DNA from: a virus
Taxonomy: Duplodnaviria; Heunggongvirae; Uroviricota; Caudoviricetes
Reading direction: 5' to 3' (one strand)
Virus record (IMG/VR): IMGVR_UViG_3300033489_000001
Location: 62,023 to 126,022 of that record
DNA length: 64,000 nt
Shown here: positions 25,623 to 38,111 of the stretch, piece after piece
How positions within the stretch are numbered: the first letter of the stretch is position 1
How the letters are laid out: each line of letters starts with the position of its first letter
The notes under the pieces: generated by a model
Databases searched by the model: none
Told to the model about the DNA's origin: nothing
What the model saw: the letters and a program-made list of their open reading frames with translations, nothing else
Program-made: the position numbers and the translations under genes

Positions 25623-25662
25623 AAAAAACCGGGCGAAGTATTGTCAGTCCAACTTCGTCCGG
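25623..25662 (-). terminator. Rho-independent terminator closing the tRNA-mimic RNA array
   Basis: 11-bp stem (25629-25639/25652-25662) followed on the minus strand by TTTTTT. Confidence 0.75.
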
Positions 25663-25699: not shown

Positions 25700-25749
25700 C
25701 GGTGCTCTTGGCGGGAATCGAACCCACTAAGCTCCATCTGCTCAAGAAC
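25700..25749 (-). ncRNA. 50-nt mini-tRNA (acceptor stem + T arm only), copy 1
   Basis: GTTCTTG-15 nt-GTGGG TTCGATT CCCGC-CAAGAGC-ACCG. Confidence 0.65.
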
Positions 25750-25752
25750 ATA

Positions 25753-25906
25753 TTCTGCAACGTATCCGAGTACTAAACCTGTTTTAGCGTTTTGCTTGTA
25801 CCAAAAACAAGTGCCTTAACCACTAGGCTACTTCTCCCTTACGGGGGAAAGTTGGATTCGAACCAACGATTGCATGTAAGATTTAGCTGGTGGATACAAT
25901 GCAGAA
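25753..25906 (-). ncRNA. Circularly permuted tRNA-like RNA (YrlA/Y-RNA-like) A, with a Gln(UUG) anticodon arm
   Basis: Order: closing stem, T arm GTTGG TTCGAAT CCAAC, acceptor capped by C-GTAA-G, D arm GCC TAGTGGTTAA GGC, anticodon arm CTTGT TTTTGGT ACAAG, closing stem. Confidence 0.8.
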
Positions 25907-25912
25907 ATTTTT

Positions 25913-26036
25913 GAGGGCGTTCGAGGCGAAAAAGCAGGTTTTTTGCGACGGGATTCGGACCCGTTACAATCTGTTTATAGGACAGATGCTCTACCTATTG
26001 AGCTACGCTTGTATGCTTTCTCTGTTGAGCGTCCTC
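25913..26036 (-). ncRNA. Pseudo-tRNA-Ile(UAU) with a broken, extended acceptor stem
   Basis: D arm GCTC/GAGC, anticodon arm TCTGT CCTATAA ACAGA, T arm ACGGG TCCGAAT CCCGT; only 3 acceptor bp, then outer helices GAGAAAGCA/TGCTTTTTC and GAGGACG/CGCCCTC. Confidence 0.65.
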
Positions 26037-26085
26037 GGTGCCGGATCGTGGAGTCGAACCACGCTAAGCAACCTATTTGTCCGAC
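26036..26085 (-). ncRNA. 50-nt mini-tRNA (acceptor stem + T arm only), copy 2
   Basis: GTCGGAC-15 nt-CGTGG TTCGACT CCACG-ATCCGGC-ACCG. Confidence 0.65.
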
Positions 26086-26136
26086 AGTCCCACTCATTAA
26101 GAAGGTGGGCTTACTTTGATTGATGAACCTCAGGCT

Positions 26137-26164
26137 AATATACCAATCCAGAATATATTGTCAA
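26137..26164 (-). promoter_or_regulatory. Sigma70-type promoter inside the RNA array
   Basis: TTGACA-N16-TATATT with a TG extended -10. Confidence 0.6.
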
Positions 26165-26175
26165 CCAAAAATCAT

Positions 26176-26289
26176 TGCACCCGAGTAGATAAACCTGGTT
26201 TTGCCTTACCATTAGGCTATTTTTCCAGTTTATGGAGGAAAAAGTTGGAATTGAACCAACATGCATGTAAGGTTTATCTGGTGGGTGCA
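26176..26289 (-). ncRNA. Circularly permuted tRNA-like RNA (YrlA/Y-RNA-like) B
   Basis: TGCACCC/GGGTGCA and ATAAACCT/AGGTTTAT closing stems; T arm GTTGG TTCAATT CCAAC; capped acceptor TTTTTCC/GGAAAAA; D arm GCC TAATGGTAA GGC; no anticodon arm. Confidence 0.8.
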
Positions 26290-26290
26290 G

Positions 26291-26424
26291 TGGCGGGCTA
26301 TTCGGGAGTCGAACCCTATCTTGTAAGGACTAGCGGGGTGGTCCCTTTGAGAGGACCGAGAACTAATCCTGGTTAGTTGCCTTTTTATAATAAAGGTGAC
26401 GGAACCGACCGTCTGTTATAGCCC
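26291..26424 (-). ncRNA. 134-nt tRNA-like RNA, UAU anticodon, ~61-nt variable region, encoded CCA
   Basis: Perfect 7-bp acceptor GGGCTAT/ATAGCCC plus GCCA; D-like GACGG/CCGTC; CCTTT ATTATAA AAAGG arm; two extra hairpins; T loop TTCGACT. Confidence 0.7.
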
Positions 26425-30749: not shown

Positions 30750-32666
30750 TCAAGCTGCCCAGGCCGGTTTTGAAAGAAGGGCTGTATCCAAAATTATATC
30801 CACTAAGGACTTTCTAGGAACAGCAGCAGCTCTGGCCGCCTTACCAACGGGTGTGGCGGAAATTAAAGTACGGATAGTCCGAGGAATTGCATAAGCATCT
30901 GCAAAGATCTTCTCATCGATCATGAAGCACGGGACACCTAACTCAGTCGCCGTACCGGTGACTGCCGAGTAAGGAGATTGCCGCACTTTCAAGAAACCAA
31001 AAGCAATCGGCTCTAATTTAGAATCCCGTACAGCAGCCGCAAAAGGTCCAGCTTCCTCATCGCCTACGAAGATGAAAAGGACATCCTCATCAGCCTTAGG
31101 TTTGAAGTTTTGAAGCGCCCGTACCCCAGCACCGTAATCAGTGCCACCTCCAGACGTAATGCCTCGAAAAGCATTTTCAACTCCAGCAGCAGAATTGTGC
31201 TTAATCTCAACCACACGACCAGAAGTATTGAATACCGAAACATGGATCTGATCTTTTGGAAATCCCTGTAAGAACTTGGCCAAATAGACTTTGGCTTGCT
31301 CAATGGCATCATGCATCGAACCTGAGATATCCACCATGAAGTAGATGCGGAGACCTTTGACAACTTCTTCTACGGCCTTTTTAACCGCATTGTCCGCCGC
31401 TTCTACAAGCTTTTCTTGTGTCGCCTTAGAACGAACACGGGTTGCGATATTAGCCGCCCTGGTGTCTTCAGCGGTCTTGATAGCCCTCTCCCACCGCTCA
31501 CGGATTTCTTGAACATCAAGAAGCCCAAGTTCCTCAAGGGTAGGAGTTGAAATGATCAAGTCCTTATCAGAAAGCGCCTTCGCTTCGATAGCTGCCGCCA
31601 TAATCGCTCTTGTCAGTCCCATGTCTTTAGGCAAGAGGCCCACAATGCGCTTAAAGCTTGGCTTGGTCTTGATGATAGTCTTACAGATTTTTGCTTCGTC
31701 AAATCCTTCCCAAGATTCCGCCGCCGCAACAGCCTGACCAATAGTAAGAGTCCTTCTGCCGTCTTTCGCTTGCGTTTGCTTCCAACGAAGAACCTCAAAG
31801 AATTTTGTGGAAGTAGGCTTGTATCCAACCGTACGAGCTAGGTCCATCACTGTCCGTCGAAACCCCGCTTTGACTAAACCTTCTAGCATCTTTGGGTTTT
31901 CTTCCCGATAACGAAGCCACTTTTCAACAACCTTAGGCCAACGACCTAGAAACGGATGTTGAGCTGATTTTCCAAAGCCCAGCTCTTGGTTGATTTGCAC
32001 AACAGCCGGTAGAAGCAGGACATCTCGAACACGGAATAGAAGCTTTGGGTTGAAATCTCTGCCTACTTCTACCTTAGCCTCCTTATCCGCCTTACCCTTT
32101 TTCTTGGTTTTTGTACCTTGAGGGCGAGCCACTTTACTGGTCAATAGCAGCATCGCTTCCCCAACATCACGAAAGTCTTCATCGTAGAAAGCCAGTTTTC
32201 CACCGTCAAGAACAGGATCACCTTTACGGCATTGTACAAGCATGAAAGCCGCTAGGATGACTTTCAAATCCCGGTGCTCTTGTGCATAAGCATAAGAAGC
32301 CCACTTAGCTGAGAACTCATTATCAAGCCTCCAAACCTCAGCAACTTGCCGGTAAATCCACGACACAACCTCTGGGTACAATCCCGCCGGTTGATAACGG
32401 CCAATGACCCGGTTTCCGTCTTTTACACGACCGTCGTCCTTGAGCTTACCAAGCTTGACCTTAGTATCCTTGCGCCCAATTCTACGTAATTCGTAGACGA
32501 CTTTATCGCCTTCTTCTACTACGTGAGTTACTGGCAACCATTTAGTGCCCACAACCGAAGTAGTATCAGGAATCGTAATTCCAGCTCGGTTATGGTAACT
32601 ATGATCGACATAGCCAAGAACCGTCTGGAGAATTCGTTCTGCTGGTCCTAGGTTTTCATTTGGCAT
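30750..32666 (-). CDS. Divergent Ro60/TROVE-like protein with C-terminal vWA domain
   Basis: Helical N-terminal region with DLARTVGYKP (cf. Ro60 DLLRLxHxKP); vWA DISGS, GGGTDY, FVGDEE; co-located with YrlA-like RNAs; probable start MPNEN at 32666. Confidence 0.6.
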   Translation of the reverse strand: MPNENLGPAERILQTVLGYVDHSYHNRAGITIPDTTSVVGTKWLPVTHVVEEGDKVVYELRRIGRKDTKVKLGKLKDDGRVKDGNRVIGRYQPAGLYPEVVSWIYRQVAEVWRLDNEFSAKWASYAYAQEHRDLKVILAAFMLVQCRKGDPVLDGGKLAFYDEDFRDVGEAMLLLTSKVARPQGTKTKKKGKADKEAKVEVGRDFNPKLLFRVRDVLLLPAVVQINQELGFGKSAQHPFLGRWPKVVEKWLRYREENPKMLEGLVKAGFRRTVMDLARTVGYKPTSTKFFEVLRWKQTQAKDGRRTLTIGQAVAAAESWEGFDEAKICKTIIKTKPSFKRIVGLLPKDMGLTRAIMAAAIEAKALSDKDLIISTPTLEELGLLDVQEIRERWERAIKTAEDTRAANIATRVRSKATQEKLVEAADNAVKKAVEEVVKGLRIYFMVDISGSMHDAIEQAKVYLAKFLQGFPKDQIHVSVFNTSGRVVEIKHNSAAGVENAFRGITSGGGTDYGAGVRALQNFKPKADEDVLFIFVGDEEAGPFAAAVRDSKLEPIAFGFLKVRQSPYSAVTGTATELGVPCFMIDEKIFADAYAIPRTIRTLISATPVGKAARAAAVPRKSLVDIILDTALLSKPAWAA

Positions 32667-32814
32667 GGTATTTAATCCGATCTGGCTCGCCCTTGGCACA
32701 AACTTATAAGGCTGGCAAGCTAGCCTTGAAAAAACCCCCATTATTACACCGAATAACGGTCTTGTAAAGTTACTTCCTAGCAGATTACTTGAAAAAAAAA
32801 CAGCTTTTGTGACT

Positions 32815-33317: not shown

Positions 33318-34325
33318 ATGGTGCCCGTAGTTGATAGAAATCAGATCCCCTTAATGCCGTGCTCCGAAAAGAGAGCTAGGAAAATGGTTGCATCCAAAAA
33401 GGCCACTCCTTTTTGGAAAAGAGGGATTTTTTGTATCCGTCTTAATGTAGAACCGTCAGCTTGTAACTTACAAAAAATAGTTGTTGGAATAGATCCAGGC
33501 TCTAAGAAGGAAGGATTCACTGTAAAATCTAAAGCTCACACTCTTTTAAACATTCAAGCCGATGCTATAACTTGGGTGAAGGATCATGTTGAAACTAGAA
33601 GGATTATGAGAAGAGGGCGGAGGTTTAGAAAGACTCCTTGTAGACAAAATAGAATGAATCGATCTAGGGGAAGTCTGCCTCCTTCAACTAAGTCTAGATG
33701 GCAGTGGAAGTTAAGGATTGTAAACTGGCTTAGGAAGATGTTTCCTGTAGTTAGCTTTGTAGTTGAGGATATAAAGGTAATAACCAAGAAATTTCAAAAG
33801 AAGTGGAACAGAAGTTTTTCTCCTTTAGAAGTTGGAAAAGCTTGGTTCTATGAGAAGTTAAGAGCTTTAGGGGAATTGACGATTAAGCAAGGGTGGGACA
33901 CTAAACTTTTACGAGACAACTTAAGCCTCAAGAAGACCTCTAAGAAAATGTCTGAAGTTTTTAGTGCTCATTGCGTTGATTCTTGGGTTTTAGCAAATGA
34001 GATAATTGGGGGCCATTTAAAGCCTGAGAACACAAGACTTACTTGTGTTATTCCTATTCAACTATTTAGAAGACAGTTGCATAGAATGGTTCCTTCTAAA
34101 GGAGGAAAGAGATCTCTTTATGGTGGGACTAGAAGTCTTGGGTTGAAACGCGGATCTTTAGTAAAGCATCCTAAGCTAGGGCTCACTTATGTTGGTGGAA
34201 GTTCTAATAATCGGTTGAGTCTTCATTCCTTGTTGAATGGATCTAGATTGACTAAGAGTGCGAAGTTAGAAGATTGCAGGTTTTTATCTTATAGTGGGGT
34301 AAGGACTTATAATGTTCTTACTTGA
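33318..34325 (+). CDS. isrB: IsrB (IscB-family RNA-guided nickase lacking HNH)
   Basis: PLMP motif, GIDPGSK (RuvC-I), Arg-rich bridge helix, VVEDI (RuvC-II), HCVDS (RuvC-III); 335 aa, no HNH domain. Confidence 0.85.
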   Translation: MVPVVDRNQIPLMPCSEKRARKMVASKKATPFWKRGIFCIRLNVEPSACNLQKIVVGIDPGSKKEGFTVKSKAHTLLNIQADAITWVKDHVETRRIMRRGRRFRKTPCRQNRMNRSRGSLPPSTKSRWQWKLRIVNWLRKMFPVVSFVVEDIKVITKKFQKKWNRSFSPLEVGKAWFYEKLRALGELTIKQGWDTKLLRDNLSLKKTSKKMSEVFSAHCVDSWVLANEIIGGHLKPENTRLTCVIPIQLFRRQLHRMVPSKGGKRSLYGGTRSLGLKRGSLVKHPKLGLTYVGGSSNNRLSLHSLLNGSRLTKSAKLEDCRFLSYSGVRTYNVLT

Positions 34326-34337
34326 GGAGAGTTCTCG

Positions 34338-35609
34338 ATGGATGCTCAAAAAGTAGCCGCCCGATTTGCAGCGGAACAAACAAAAGCCGAACTTCTCAAA
34401 AACACAATTGAGGAATTTGGCAAAGCTTTGCGTTATCTTAGCCGTTTTTCCTCAGTCCTTTCCGCCGCCTTGCACGAAGACCGTACCACTTTAGAACCGG
34501 ACGAAGTCTGGCAAGACCAGTTCGTACGCTATTGGAAAGATTGGGACCCGATTAGAAAACGCTTAGAGGATCTGGCCTCTGATTTAGGCGACCTAAGCTT
34601 ATATGACTTGGAAGCTCATATCAAAAAAGCCACTGCTGAAACTTCCGGAACCCCTAGCTACAACCCAAACTCTCCTTACCAAATTGGTTACGCCACGAAT
34701 GATGGAACGGGGCACACCACTTTTAGAAAGACGCCTCAAGGCCGCCAGCACATTGCTTACAAAGTTGACCGATTGAAAACTTGGGGCGAAGCCATGGTTC
34801 GATGGGCTAAAGAAGGCCAAACTCTCGCCCAAAAGTTAACTAAAATAAAAACACGCCCTAATAAACGTTTGGCAAATCTGCTAAAAGCTTCTGAGACACA
34901 GTTCCCCCTACAACGTCTGGCTATGGTCCGCATGATAAAGGGTACAAGCATGGTACCTTGGGCCAAACGGGAATTAGAATTGGCTGGCCTTTTCGATGAA
35001 GCCTCCGATTATGATGGAGCATTAGGCTCACAAATTTACGAATTAGTGAAAACTTTCTCAGAACAAGGACATAGCGGGGGATCCGCCGGTATAGTTTCCG
35101 ATGTACTCGATAAGTTGCTCAACTACGAGCCCCTCACCCCACTAGGAAACCCCAGCGAAACCGGGGATTATATAAACGTTCAAATACCCAGCCCCACAGG
35201 CGCACCTACTTACCAAAGCACCAGAGATTTTTCAGTCTTTAGTGACGATTCAGGTAAGACTTGGTACAAGCTTGTAAGTGATCAAGACGAGGTGCTGCGA
35301 AACACATCAATGATTTCTAATCGCGTGCCTCTTGAAGAATATGAAGCTCAAAAGTTTAGAACCGCTCGCGTAAGTTTCAAGTATGAACCAAAAGAAACAA
35401 AACAGTCTAAAGTAAAACGTCTCATGGCCTTTATTACAAAAAGTACGGGCGTGGGGCGTAATGTTTCTGAGGATATTGCGGACGCCATCATTCGTAATCG
35501 GAATCTCTCTGCGTTGGCCGTTCAAAAGGGATGGCCAATGTCCGATGATACAATAGAAGGCCCTTTGGGGAACCTAAGTGTAGACGAAGTTCGCAACGCT
35601 CTAAACTAA
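34338..35609 (+). CDS. Hypothetical multi-module protein
   Basis: 423 aa; N-terminal KVAARF motif; internal FSEQGHSGGSA...PLTPL module. Confidence 0.7.
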   Translation: MDAQKVAARFAAEQTKAELLKNTIEEFGKALRYLSRFSSVLSAALHEDRTTLEPDEVWQDQFVRYWKDWDPIRKRLEDLASDLGDLSLYDLEAHIKKATAETSGTPSYNPNSPYQIGYATNDGTGHTTFRKTPQGRQHIAYKVDRLKTWGEAMVRWAKEGQTLAQKLTKIKTRPNKRLANLLKASETQFPLQRLAMVRMIKGTSMVPWAKRELELAGLFDEASDYDGALGSQIYELVKTFSEQGHSGGSAGIVSDVLDKLLNYEPLTPLGNPSETGDYINVQIPSPTGAPTYQSTRDFSVFSDDSGKTWYKLVSDQDEVLRNTSMISNRVPLEEYEAQKFRTARVSFKYEPKETKQSKVKRLMAFITKSTGVGRNVSEDIADAIIRNRNLSALAVQKGWPMSDDTIEGPLGNLSVDEVRNALN

Positions 35610-36620: not shown

Positions 36621-38111
36621 ATGAAAAATAATGCCGCTCAAGTTGTACAACGTTTCTTAGAAGCTAAGGTGCTTATCGCTTCAAACGCCGAAAAAGAAGT
36701 TGAAAGGCTGCTCAAACAAGTGCTGCCAAGAACCCCCTGGGCTGGGAAGGCAATGGCTGTCGGCGGCTACATTAGAGACCAATACATGGGCCTAGAAGCC
36801 AAGGATCTTGACATTGTCGTAACCATCCCTGGCGGCTCCGAACATCTAACTAAACACCTCCACCGAATATTCCCGGAGAGCACTACCAACCCTCATCAAA
36901 TGGGAGCCTACCCCATCTGGCAAATTACCTTCACAGATGACACAGAGTATGATCAGCAAACATTCCACACGAAAGGGGCCATAATTGAGTTTGCTGATAC
37001 CATGAAAGAAAGCTTCCCAGACGACACCTCACGGCAACGTTCCGTGCAGCCGGGCACTCTCGAGGAGGATATAGAAAGACGTGATTTTACCGTTAACATG
37101 CTTCTCAAGGATCTAACTAGTGGAGAAATAGTTGATCTTACAGGCGTTAGTAAATCCGATATTGAAAATGGCATCTTGAGAGGTCACCCTCGGGTATCTC
37201 TTGATAAGATTTTCAAAGAGGATCCCTTACGTATGGCTAGGCTCATACGCTTCCAATGCAAGTATGGTTGGATCATTCCTCTCTCAGTTCTAAAAACCGT
37301 CCGGCGAAATGCGACACGTATCAAGATAGTTTCTGCTGAACGTATCATGGGAGAACTGACAAAGGTAATGAAGCTAGGCAAGTTAGATCAAGCCATAAAA
37401 TTAATGAAAGCAACCGGCCTATTACCTCACATCTTACCCGAAGTTCAGGCCATGATTGGCGTGAAGCAATCCGAACGAGAACACGCCGAAGGAGATGTCT
37501 ACAAGCACACTCTTGAAGTGCTCCGGAATGCACCCTCCACTATTGAAGGGCAACTGGCGGCCCTACTCCACGATGTTGGAAAACCTTCTACGCAAGAATT
37601 AATAGGGGATGCCCTACACTTCTACGGACACGAAGACGTAGGGGCTGAAATAACCGAAGCCATTTTACGCCGTCTAAAGTTTGATGTGACAACCATCAAA
37701 AAAGTTGTGACTGCTGTCCGCAATCACATGCGTCCCCACTTCCTCTCAGAATCTAAAGACAAAGCTATCCGAAAATTTATTCGTGACCTTGGAGACGAAA
37801 TAGAAGTCACGCTGGACTTAGCGGAAGCGGATGAAAAAGGAAGTTTCCCAAACAAACATAACATCCCGGTGCTTAGGGAAAGAGTCAAAAACATCCGAGA
37901 ATCCCCCCTGCCCGTTTCCCGGAAACCGATCCTAAATGGAATTGAATTGATGGGTATCCTTGGAATTACCACACAAGACAAACAAAAGCTGCCCTTGATA
38001 GGCTCAGCTGGCAAGTTCCTATTGGACCTGGCAGATGACTATGCCGAACGGGGACTCGAATTAACCAAAGAAGAAGCCGCCCACGCTGTTAGAGAACGAT
38101 ATAAAGCATAA
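36621..38111 (+). CDS. cca: CCA-adding tRNA nucleotidyltransferase with HD domain
   Basis: VGGYIRD..DLDI, EDIERRDFTVN, DPLRMAR, ERI, LLHDVGKP. Confidence 0.9.
   Translation: MKNNAAQVVQRFLEAKVLIASNAEKEVERLLKQVLPRTPWAGKAMAVGGYIRDQYMGLEAKDLDIVVTIPGGSEHLTKHLHRIFPESTTNPHQMGAYPIWQITFTDDTEYDQQTFHTKGAIIEFADTMKESFPDDTSRQRSVQPGTLEEDIERRDFTVNMLLKDLTSGEIVDLTGVSKSDIENGILRGHPRVSLDKIFKEDPLRMARLIRFQCKYGWIIPLSVLKTVRRNATRIKIVSAERIMGELTKVMKLGKLDQAIKLMKATGLLPHILPEVQAMIGVKQSEREHAEGDVYKHTLEVLRNAPSTIEGQLAALLHDVGKPSTQELIGDALHFYGHEDVGAEITEAILRRLKFDVTTIKKVVTAVRNHMRPHFLSESKDKAIRKFIRDLGDEIEVTLDLAEADEKGSFPNKHNIPVLRERVKNIRESPLPVSRKPILNGIELMGILGITTQDKQKLPLIGSAGKFLLDLADDYAERGLELTKEEAAHAVRERYKA

What the first reader, a model, noticed from the sequence alone, without database searches (positions are those of the whole stretch)
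25700..25749. 50-nt mini-tRNA consisting only of the tRNA top half (copy 1)
Seen: 7-bp acceptor, 15-nt linker containing GG, canonical 5/7/5 T arm, then ACC-G; there is no D stem and no anticodon arm. Its geometry is identical to copy 2 although the stem sequences differ. Established: CCA-adding enzymes and RNase P recognise mainly the acceptor/T-arm half. Inference: a minimal decoy or substrate that would need one A added after trimming, possibly by the phage CCA enzyme.
Basis: partly seen in the sequence, partly recalled or inferred. Interest (0 to 1): 0.78.

Follow-up and report, generated by a model that had tools for sequence, protein, structure and literature searches.

The report
Anticodon-less mini-tRNA spacer in phage
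A 411-kb phage encodes a real, conserved 47-base tRNA look-alike with no anticodon arm; it most likely marks where tRNA-trimming enzymes cut neighbouring Y-RNA-like small RNAs out of one long transcript, though no RNA data show this yet.

Summary
The element is real and lies on the minus strand (25749-25700): a 7/7 acceptor stem, 5/5 T stem, canonical T loop, then A-C-C; 0 such in 300 simulated windows. Corrections: a small GG-containing D-like hairpin is probably present (10 of 12 such minis); linkers run 14-25 nt, so 7+15+17+7 is not fixed; ACC-G is an ordinary tRNA ending in this phage. It sits in an array of tRNA-shaped RNAs beside a distant Ro60-like gene. In related phages, minis, full-length tRNA-like RNAs and ordinary tRNAs fill the same slot: directly 5' of a closed Y-RNA-like RNA (8/11 minis vs 26/905 tRNAs) whose helix starts at tRNA positions 75-78. 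Minis are deletion derivatives of several origins that keep the parts processing enzymes recognise. Best reading (0.6): tRNA punctuation. This copy starts 3 nt after closed RNA E, so an RNase P cut would make E's 3' end; its usual 3' partner looks decayed. The cutting enzymes are inferred. No link to the phage CCA enzyme was found. The scan noted this reading before, for copy 2 and for an Enterococcus phage.

The parts
25703..25749 (-). Mini-tRNA F (the finding): acceptor stem, probable 3-bp D-like hairpin with GG, T arm, discriminator A73; 47 nt, 50 nt if CCA-completed
25743..25749 (-). 5' acceptor strand; G+1 preceded by U-1 (25750): predicted RNase P site, 3 nt after the end of RNA E
   Evidence: the cut itself is inferred
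25728..25742 (-). 15-nt linker; possible AGC/GCU stem around a 7-nt GG loop; anticodon and variable arms absent
25711..25727 (-). T arm, 5 bp plus canonical 7-nt loop
25701..25710 (-). 3' acceptor strand plus A73-C74-C75
25679..25700 (-). Probable truncated remnant of the 5' strand of a D-type closed RNA (13/22 ungapped matches to the start of RNA D; handle motif missing)
   Evidence: binomial p about 0.0015, one anchored comparison
25623..25662 (-). Terminator-like bulged hairpin plus U run closing the array
   Evidence: fold; not listed by the consensus scan
25753..25906 (-). RNA E: closed, permuted tRNA mimic (T arm, loop-sealed acceptor, D arm, UUG anticodon arm) on the conserved bulged handle helix; 5' neighbour of F
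25913..26036 (-). RNA D: closed RNA with D, anticodon (UAU) and T arms; the handle helix replaces the acceptor stem
26037..26085 (-). Mini-tRNA C (copy 2), directly 5' of RNA D
26087..26125 (-). Palindromic repeat (13 copies in the genome) just 5' of copy 2
26137..26164 (-). Sigma-70 promoter-like site (11/12 matches) that could drive C-D-E-F
   Evidence: the count of 2 sites equals the shuffle expectation, so this is weak
26176..26290 (-). RNA B: closed permuted mimic with YrlA-like geometry (handle at the anticodon-arm position)
26291..26424 (-). RNA A: open, CCA-ending tRNA-like RNA with the handle in the variable arm; abuts the 5' end of B
30750..32741 (-). 663-aa helical plus vWA protein, distant Ro60/Rsr-like; heads the JAB/ThiF gene block upstream of the array
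36621..38111 (+). Class II CCA-adding-like nucleotidyltransferase with HD domain; could complete F's 3' end but shows no specific link to it

Best explanation
F is a tRNA-derived processing signal ('tRNA punctuation') in a multi-RNA transcript. SHOWN (sequence comparison): anticodon-less minis occupy a slot that full-length tRNA-like RNAs and ordinary tRNAs fill in other phages, directly 5' of closed Y-RNA-like RNAs that have no free acceptor end of their own. SHOWN: they keep a 7-bp acceptor, the T arm, usually a GG hairpin, and N-C-Y. INFERRED: host RNase P cuts at G+1 and a 3' tRNA-processing activity cuts or trims near N73-76, releasing the neighbours. For this copy the working end is probably the 5' one: an RNase P cut 3 nt after RNA E's closing helix makes E's 3' end, mascRNA-style. 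Its usual 3' partner has apparently decayed, so the short trailer before the terminator would be trimmed to ACC and an A added by host or phage enzyme, leaving a ~50-nt uncharged by-product. INFERRED: the released closed RNAs bind the Ro60-like protein.
For: Strong minis ending N-C-Y are followed by the handle motif in 8/11 cases, against 26/905 ordinary tRNAs and 68/119 long A-type RNAs (Fisher p 2e-10, inflated by relatedness). For open elements preceding a handle, the next RNA's closing helix starts at tRNA positions 75-78 in 107/126 cases, against a much flatter control. The order A, E, (full A2 or mini), D recurs after the ThiF gene. A deletion series exists for the copy-2 type: full-length in L015, L242, L245; about 55-nt linker in L012; 15 nt in the window; about 11 nt in L083. 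F's acceptor recurs in L018 and L081 (Ro-like protein 71-76% identical) with unrelated linkers and T-stem pair 50-64 varying U.G / C-G / U-A. Other minis carry quite different, fully paired acceptors, one Ala-like with G3.U70 (L174), suggesting repeated independent loss of the anticodon arm. F has U-1, G+1, 7 bp and C74-C75; C74/C75 pair with G293/G292 of RNase P RNA (PMC1874595). RNase Z contacts the T arm and acceptor stem, and anticodon-less precursors can be processed (PMC7479834). The helical domain of the 663-aa protein ranks the three Ro60/Rsr structures first of 48,161 chains (Z 8.7-9.1, next 6.0).
Against: No RNA-level evidence was obtained. F lacks the conserved downstream closed RNA, and 5' abutment of a mini to a closed RNA is not conserved (insertions lie there in L018, L081, L042 and copy 2). 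B. subtilis RNase Z cuts trailers starting with CC poorly (PMC7479834), so the 3' enzyme is unresolved. F's predicted MFE fold disrupts the T arm (P(53-61)=0.01 without modifications or tertiary contacts). Loci are related, so counts are not independent events. The Ro60 likeness is distant (rmsd about 18 A, 11-17% identity, no TROVE Pfam hit).
Confidence: 0.6

Rival explanations
1. This copy is a leftover. Minis act only for a downstream D-type RNA; here a second E-mini-D block lost D, and F persists without a job.
For: The 22 nt after F match the start of RNA D at 13 positions, then break off before the handle motif. The window array reads as A-[B-C-D]-[E-F-remnant], whereas relatives have one such block.
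Against: F keeps 7/7 and 5/5 pairing and a canonical T loop while the remnant beside it differs from D at 9 of 22 positions. A contig from a second study keeps the E-F junction and F's first 20 nt unchanged (X3). E has no open element 5' of it and needs a 3' end.
Confidence: 0.15
2. The mini is not cut off at its 3' side. It is the 5' domain of a composite RNA (mini plus closed RNA, two elbows), with the next helix stacked on its acceptor stem and only RNase P acting.
For: The downstream helix begins at positions 74-78, even pairing C74-U75 in L081. C74 is near universal, and cytidines there inhibit B. subtilis RNase Z (PMC7479834). MHV68 TMER4 accumulates as tRNA-like part plus stem-loop (PMC4838037).
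Against: Ordinary tRNA genes fill the same slot in about 20-30 cases and need a free 3' end to work. F has no closed RNA after it.
Confidence: 0.13
3. One reading: a free ~50-nt RNA that is itself the functional product, a decoy or substrate for CCA-adding enzyme, RNase P, tRNA-sensing defence proteins or the Ro60-like protein.
For: It keeps the elbow and acceptor that such proteins read, it would resist anticodon nucleases, and a CCA-enzyme gene lies 11 kb away.
Against: Linker length, acceptor sequence and discriminator vary. No conserved aminoacylation signal (G3.U70 only in L174). Minis are interchangeable with normal tRNAs in the slot. They lack the handle motif. No CCA-enzyme gene in 237 related loci.
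Confidence: 0.12

Closest known systems
mascRNA / Men-beta tRNA-like structures (MALAT1, NEAT1)
   Same: Short tRNA-like element whose cleavage by RNase P forms the 3' end of the upstream RNA and releases a small CCA-tailed, uncharged RNA (10.1101/312249; PMC10424219).
   Different: Eukaryotic; mascRNA keeps an anticodon-like loop (PMC10424219). Here it is a phage element with no anticodon arm at all, and the neighbours are Y-RNA-like.
MHV68 TMERs (viral tRNA-miRNA-encoded RNAs)
   Same: A virus places tRNA-like elements directly 5' of small structured RNAs; tRNase Z processing releases them (PMC4838037).
   Different: Animal herpesvirus, Pol III transcripts, pre-miRNA cargo; the tRNA-like part is not reduced to about 47 nt (own knowledge).
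YrlA/YrlB bacterial and phage Y RNAs with Rsr/Ro60 (Rfam RF02553; PMC4201824; PMC12135203)
   Same: Neighbours B and E have the permuted, loop-sealed acceptor geometry next to a Ro60-like gene. M. smegmatis YrlA and YrlB come from one precursor, and YrlA is cut by RNase P and gains CCA.
   Different: F has no 5'/3' protein-binding stem and no GNCGAA motif; the neighbours use a different handle motif and score no YrlA hit.
tmRNA tRNA-like domain and synthetic minihelix / anticodon-deleted substrates
   Same: Acceptor plus T arm plus a GG loop, with no anticodon arm.
   Different: No G3.U70, no mRNA-like domain; the phage has a separate tmRNA. F is a natural, genomically encoded element.

Membership tests
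canonical tRNA | 7-bp acceptor stem and 5-bp T arm with consensus loop | tested here: met
canonical tRNA | anticodon stem-loop | tested here: not met
   15-nt linker, no room; ARAGORN 0 genes. The Rfam tRNA hit at 25710-25831 is a chimera of E's D and anticodon arms with F's T arm across a long insert.
tRNA-like processing element (mascRNA/TMER type) | tRNA-like fold abutting a separate structured RNA | tested here: met
   3 nt from E's helix; homologues abut closed RNAs at positions 75-78
tRNA-like processing element (mascRNA/TMER type) | RNase P sequence determinants (U-1, G+1, 7-bp stem, C74-C75) | tested here: met
   PMC1874595 for the C74/C75 pairing; U-1 and G+1 preference from own knowledge
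tRNA-like processing element (mascRNA/TMER type) | actual cleavage by RNase P and/or RNase Z that releases the neighbour | not testable with these tools
   needs RNA end mapping or in vitro assay
YrlA-type Y RNA | 5'/3' stem carrying the GNCGAA Ro-binding motif | tested here: not met
   F's ends form the acceptor stem; no motif; no RF02553 match in the array
YrlA-type Y RNA | encoded within about 4 kb of a Ro60 orthologue on the same strand | tested here: inconclusive
   same strand, 5 kb from a distant Ro60-like gene; no TROVE Pfam hit
YrlA-type Y RNA | binding to Ro60/Rsr | not testable with these tools
   needs pull-down or EMSA
tmRNA (incl. two-piece) | G3.U70 alanine identity pair | tested here: not met
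   U3-A70
tmRNA (incl. two-piece) | mRNA-like domain with tag ORF | tested here: not met
   none near; the genome's tmRNA lies at C1:219546-219933
b7a-tRNA (Burroughs and Aravind 2016) | near-authentic tRNA next to Band-7 and RtcB genes | tested here: inconclusive
   known only through 10.1101/312249; no Band-7 or RtcB hit among the 20 neighbouring proteins scanned; the primary paper could not be opened

The most novel reading that the evidence does not exclude
Phages have repeatedly shrunk tRNAs and tRNA-like RNAs to 45-60-nt anticodon-less junctions (acceptor, GG hairpin, T arm, N-C-Y) kept only as cleavage punctuation that releases an uncatalogued family of Y-RNA-like RNAs for a divergent Ro60-like protein. 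This would be a natural bacterial/phage counterpart of mascRNA/TMER processing and a natural readout of the minimal in vivo substrate of RNase P and the 3' tRNase.
Probability: 0.5. Interest if true: 0.65.

Novelty: new variant of a known kind. Interest (0 to 1): 0.5.

Why it matters
How bacterial and phage Y-type RNAs get their ends is little studied; M. smegmatis YrlA and YrlB are only known to come from one precursor (PMC4201824). This locus family offers a concrete rule: an open acceptor/T-arm unit is placed against each closed RNA, and it can shrink to about 47 nt. I found no paper on natural anticodon-less minis used this way in bacteria or phages (8 literature searches; the library is incomplete). 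The natural series from full-length to mini defines what the enzymes need in vivo and is directly testable in vitro. Minis could also serve as compact separators in multiplexed RNA expression. Limits: tRNA punctuation itself is known, and this particular copy may be a leftover.

Tried and rejected
Rfam (gathering and E<=10): only tRNA part-matches and chance plastid/miRNA hits. Exact-pattern scans of viral contigs for F and for its acceptor/T-arm pattern found nothing; two more returned only phages already in hand. Sequencing runs: no RNA holder listed, which says nothing about expression. Contig pieces from X5 over F were an 18-nt match without a T arm and were ignored. The phage genome gave no match to TROVE, RNase Z-like metallo-beta-lactamase (PF12706) or RNase P RNA, and none to YrlA above cut-off, so host enzymes are assumed. 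Sequence search of the 663-aa protein against PDB gave nothing. The whole-model VIA search was dominated by vWA domains and Foldseek on the helical domain alone had no hit at E<=0.001. Rejected: split or intron-containing tRNA-Gln made of E's arms plus F's T arm, because E has its own T arm and sealed acceptor and F its own 7-bp acceptor; alanine-charged tmRNA-like domain; fixed 7+15+17+7 geometry; specific pairing with the CCA enzyme. A self-cleaving ribozyme in F's trailer was considered by eye only and not formally tested. The loose mini descriptor gives chance calls (null mean 14, max 23, observed 25 strong closures in 2132 T arms), so the raw count is barely above chance and only calls with N-C-Y plus context or a shared acceptor were trusted. 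Burroughs and Aravind 2016 could not be opened with the id I tried.

Full report
Observation. The feature lies on the minus strand, 25749-25700. It has a 7/7 acceptor stem, a 15-nt linker, a 5/5 T stem with loop UUCGAUU, then A73-C74-C75 and a G. A descriptor of these features matches once in the window and never in 300 simulated windows. ARAGORN finds no tRNA in the window. The Rfam tRNA hit over it joins the D and anticodon arms of the upstream RNA to this T arm across a long insert. Predicted folding of the naked RNA prefers another hairpin inside the same acceptor stem, -18.2 against -15.5 kcal/mol, so the tRNA-like fold rests on conservation, not on energy.

Setting. The window belongs to a complete 411,618-bp phage with 36 tRNA genes and a tmRNA elsewhere. 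Between a ThiF gene and a converging vWA gene lies an array of six tRNA-shaped RNAs: A (open, CCA end, long bulged helix in the variable arm), B (closed, permuted), C (mini, copy 2), D (closed, helix in place of the acceptor stem), E (closed, permuted) and F (this finding), then a terminator-like hairpin. A, B, D and E share a bulged 'handle' helix; C and F lack it. Upstream are JAB and ThiF genes and a 663-aa helical plus vWA protein. Foldseek ranks phage phiLo Ro60 and human Ro60 first for the whole model (E about 1e-7, TM about 0.2). The helical domain alone ranks the three Ro60/Rsr structures first among 48,161 chains (Z 9.1, 8.8, 8.7; next 6.0; rmsd about 18 A). That supports a distant Ro60-like protein but is not proof; Pfam TROVE does not hit.

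Homologues. I fetched about 240 loci, mostly through that protein and scanned every T arm for its acceptor closure. Two other phages carry F's acceptor with 17- and 14-nt unrelated linkers (L018, L081); T-stem pair 50-64 varies U.G, C-G, U-A. Further minis have other acceptors and linkers of 15-25 nt (L030, L042, L094, L026/L066, L174, L065, L150, L080), and L083 is of the copy-2 type. All contain GG in the linker, and 10 of 12 can close it with a 3-5-bp stem against 3.5 expected, 0 of 2000 shuffles. These are therefore anticodon-less junctions that keep the elbow, not bare top halves, and 15 nt is not a fixed length.

Position. Strong minis ending N-C-Y are followed by the handle motif of a closed RNA in 8 of 11 cases, long A-type RNAs in 68 of 119, ordinary tRNAs in 26 of 905. 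The loci are related, so the p-values overstate the case. Where an open element precedes a handle, the next RNA's closing helix starts at tRNA positions 75-78 in 107 of 126 cases, against a much flatter control. Close relatives show the order A, E, A2, D after ThiF, alternating open and closed RNAs. The A2 slot holds a full-length RNA in L015, L019, L242, L243 and L245, a partly deleted one in L012, and a mini in L018, L030, L081, L083 and the window. Copy 2 shares its 3' acceptor strand with full-length A2. The full-length ancestor of the F type was not found; the nearest acceptors are in Arg- and Glu-type tRNAs. Ordinary tRNAs can fill the slot too. The common denominator is an acceptor stem, a T arm and N-C-Y.

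This copy. F is unusual. It starts 3 nt after E's closing helix, with U-1 and G+1. It is followed not by a closed RNA but by 22 nt that match the start of D at 13 positions and stop before the handle. The array reads as A, [B, C, D], [E, F, remnant]. A contig from a second study keeps the E-F junction and the first 20 nt of F.

Mechanism. Shown: the fold elements, their covariation, the slot and the interchangeability. From the literature: C74/C75 pair with G293/G292 of RNase P RNA (PMC1874595); RNase Z binds acceptor and T arm, and anticodon-less precursors can be cut, but B. subtilis RNase Z is inhibited by trailers starting with CC (PMC7479834); RNase P cleavage of tRNA-like elements forms upstream lncRNA 3' ends (10.1101/312249); tRNase Z releases hairpins from MHV68 TMERs (PMC4838037). 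Inferred: host enzymes (none found in the phage) cut at the mini's ends and free the closed RNAs, which cannot be processed that way themselves. For F the likely job is E's 3' end through RNase P, followed by trimming and A addition. The 3' enzyme for other minis is open. CCA is under-represented before handles (28/122 vs 426/1187), which fits an endonuclease that dislikes CCA, but C74 is nearly always present.

The CCA enzyme is a plausible class II nucleotidyltransferase, but 28 of 35 ordinary phage tRNAs lack encoded CCA and five end N-CC-G, so it has ample other substrates, and no homologue lies in the 237 loci searched. Most homologous minis end N-C-U. A dedicated decoy role is not supported.

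Comparison and verdict. It works like mascRNA or a TMER tRNA-like element. It is not a tRNA, not a YrlA and not a tmRNA piece by the tests listed. My processing reading predates the look-up of earlier notes; those notes agree for copy 2 and for an Enterococcus phage but are not independent evidence. They gave me the Ro60 and TMER leads. Verdict: real, under selection as a class, new variant of a known kind; best explanation 0.6; interest 0.5. No RNA evidence was available.

Noticed in passing
window 26125-26087 (-) and 12 other sites in genome G000: A ~39-nt palindromic repeat, 13 copies genome-wide, resembling IS200/IS605-type ends (resemblance from memory); copies sit next to copy 2 and inside another tRNA-like RNA.
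   Followed up: partly
genome G000 C1:276620-276300 (-), outside the window: A second cluster with what looks like a permuted tRNA-Leu-like RNA (T arm and 3' acceptor strand before the 5' strand and D loop), the repeat inserted in its variable arm, and a further T-arm-like hairpin downstream.
   Followed up: partly
genome G000 tRNA genes, C1:217-251 kb: All 35 parsed tRNAs have C at position 74 but only 7 encode CCA; N-C-U is the commonest ending, which would still pair with the GG of RNase P RNA.
   Followed up: partly
window 26424-25753 (-): The same bulged handle helix is mounted at three different tRNA positions (variable arm in A and E, anticodon arm in B, acceptor stem in D); no Rfam family matches.
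   Followed up: partly
window 32741-26891 (-): Gene block of Ro60-like vWA protein, unknown 320-aa protein, JAB and ThiF (ubiquitin-like conjugation parts), conserved across related phages; the Ro60-like protein also occurs in Myxococcota-rich MAGs; here interrupted by a LAGLIDADG gene.
   Followed up: partly
L242:14735-14870: Directly after an E-type RNA, a long hairpin whose terminal stem matches F's acceptor stem but has no T arm; possibly coincidence or a mobile element.
   Followed up: no
L174:9679-9736; L080:8234-8282: Minis apparently derived from tRNA-Ala (G3.U70, could be charged) and from a Met-type tRNA (encoded CCA, no closed RNA after it).
   Followed up: partly
L018 and L042, just 5' of the minis: A similar HNH-like ORF is inserted immediately upstream of the mini in two phages.
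   Followed up: no
window 34338-35609 (+): 423-aa protein with a Tad3 (Thoeris inhibitor) Pfam domain.
   Followed up: no
window 33318-34325 (+): RRXRR-family (IscB-like) gene with a ~270-nt non-coding leader.
   Followed up: no
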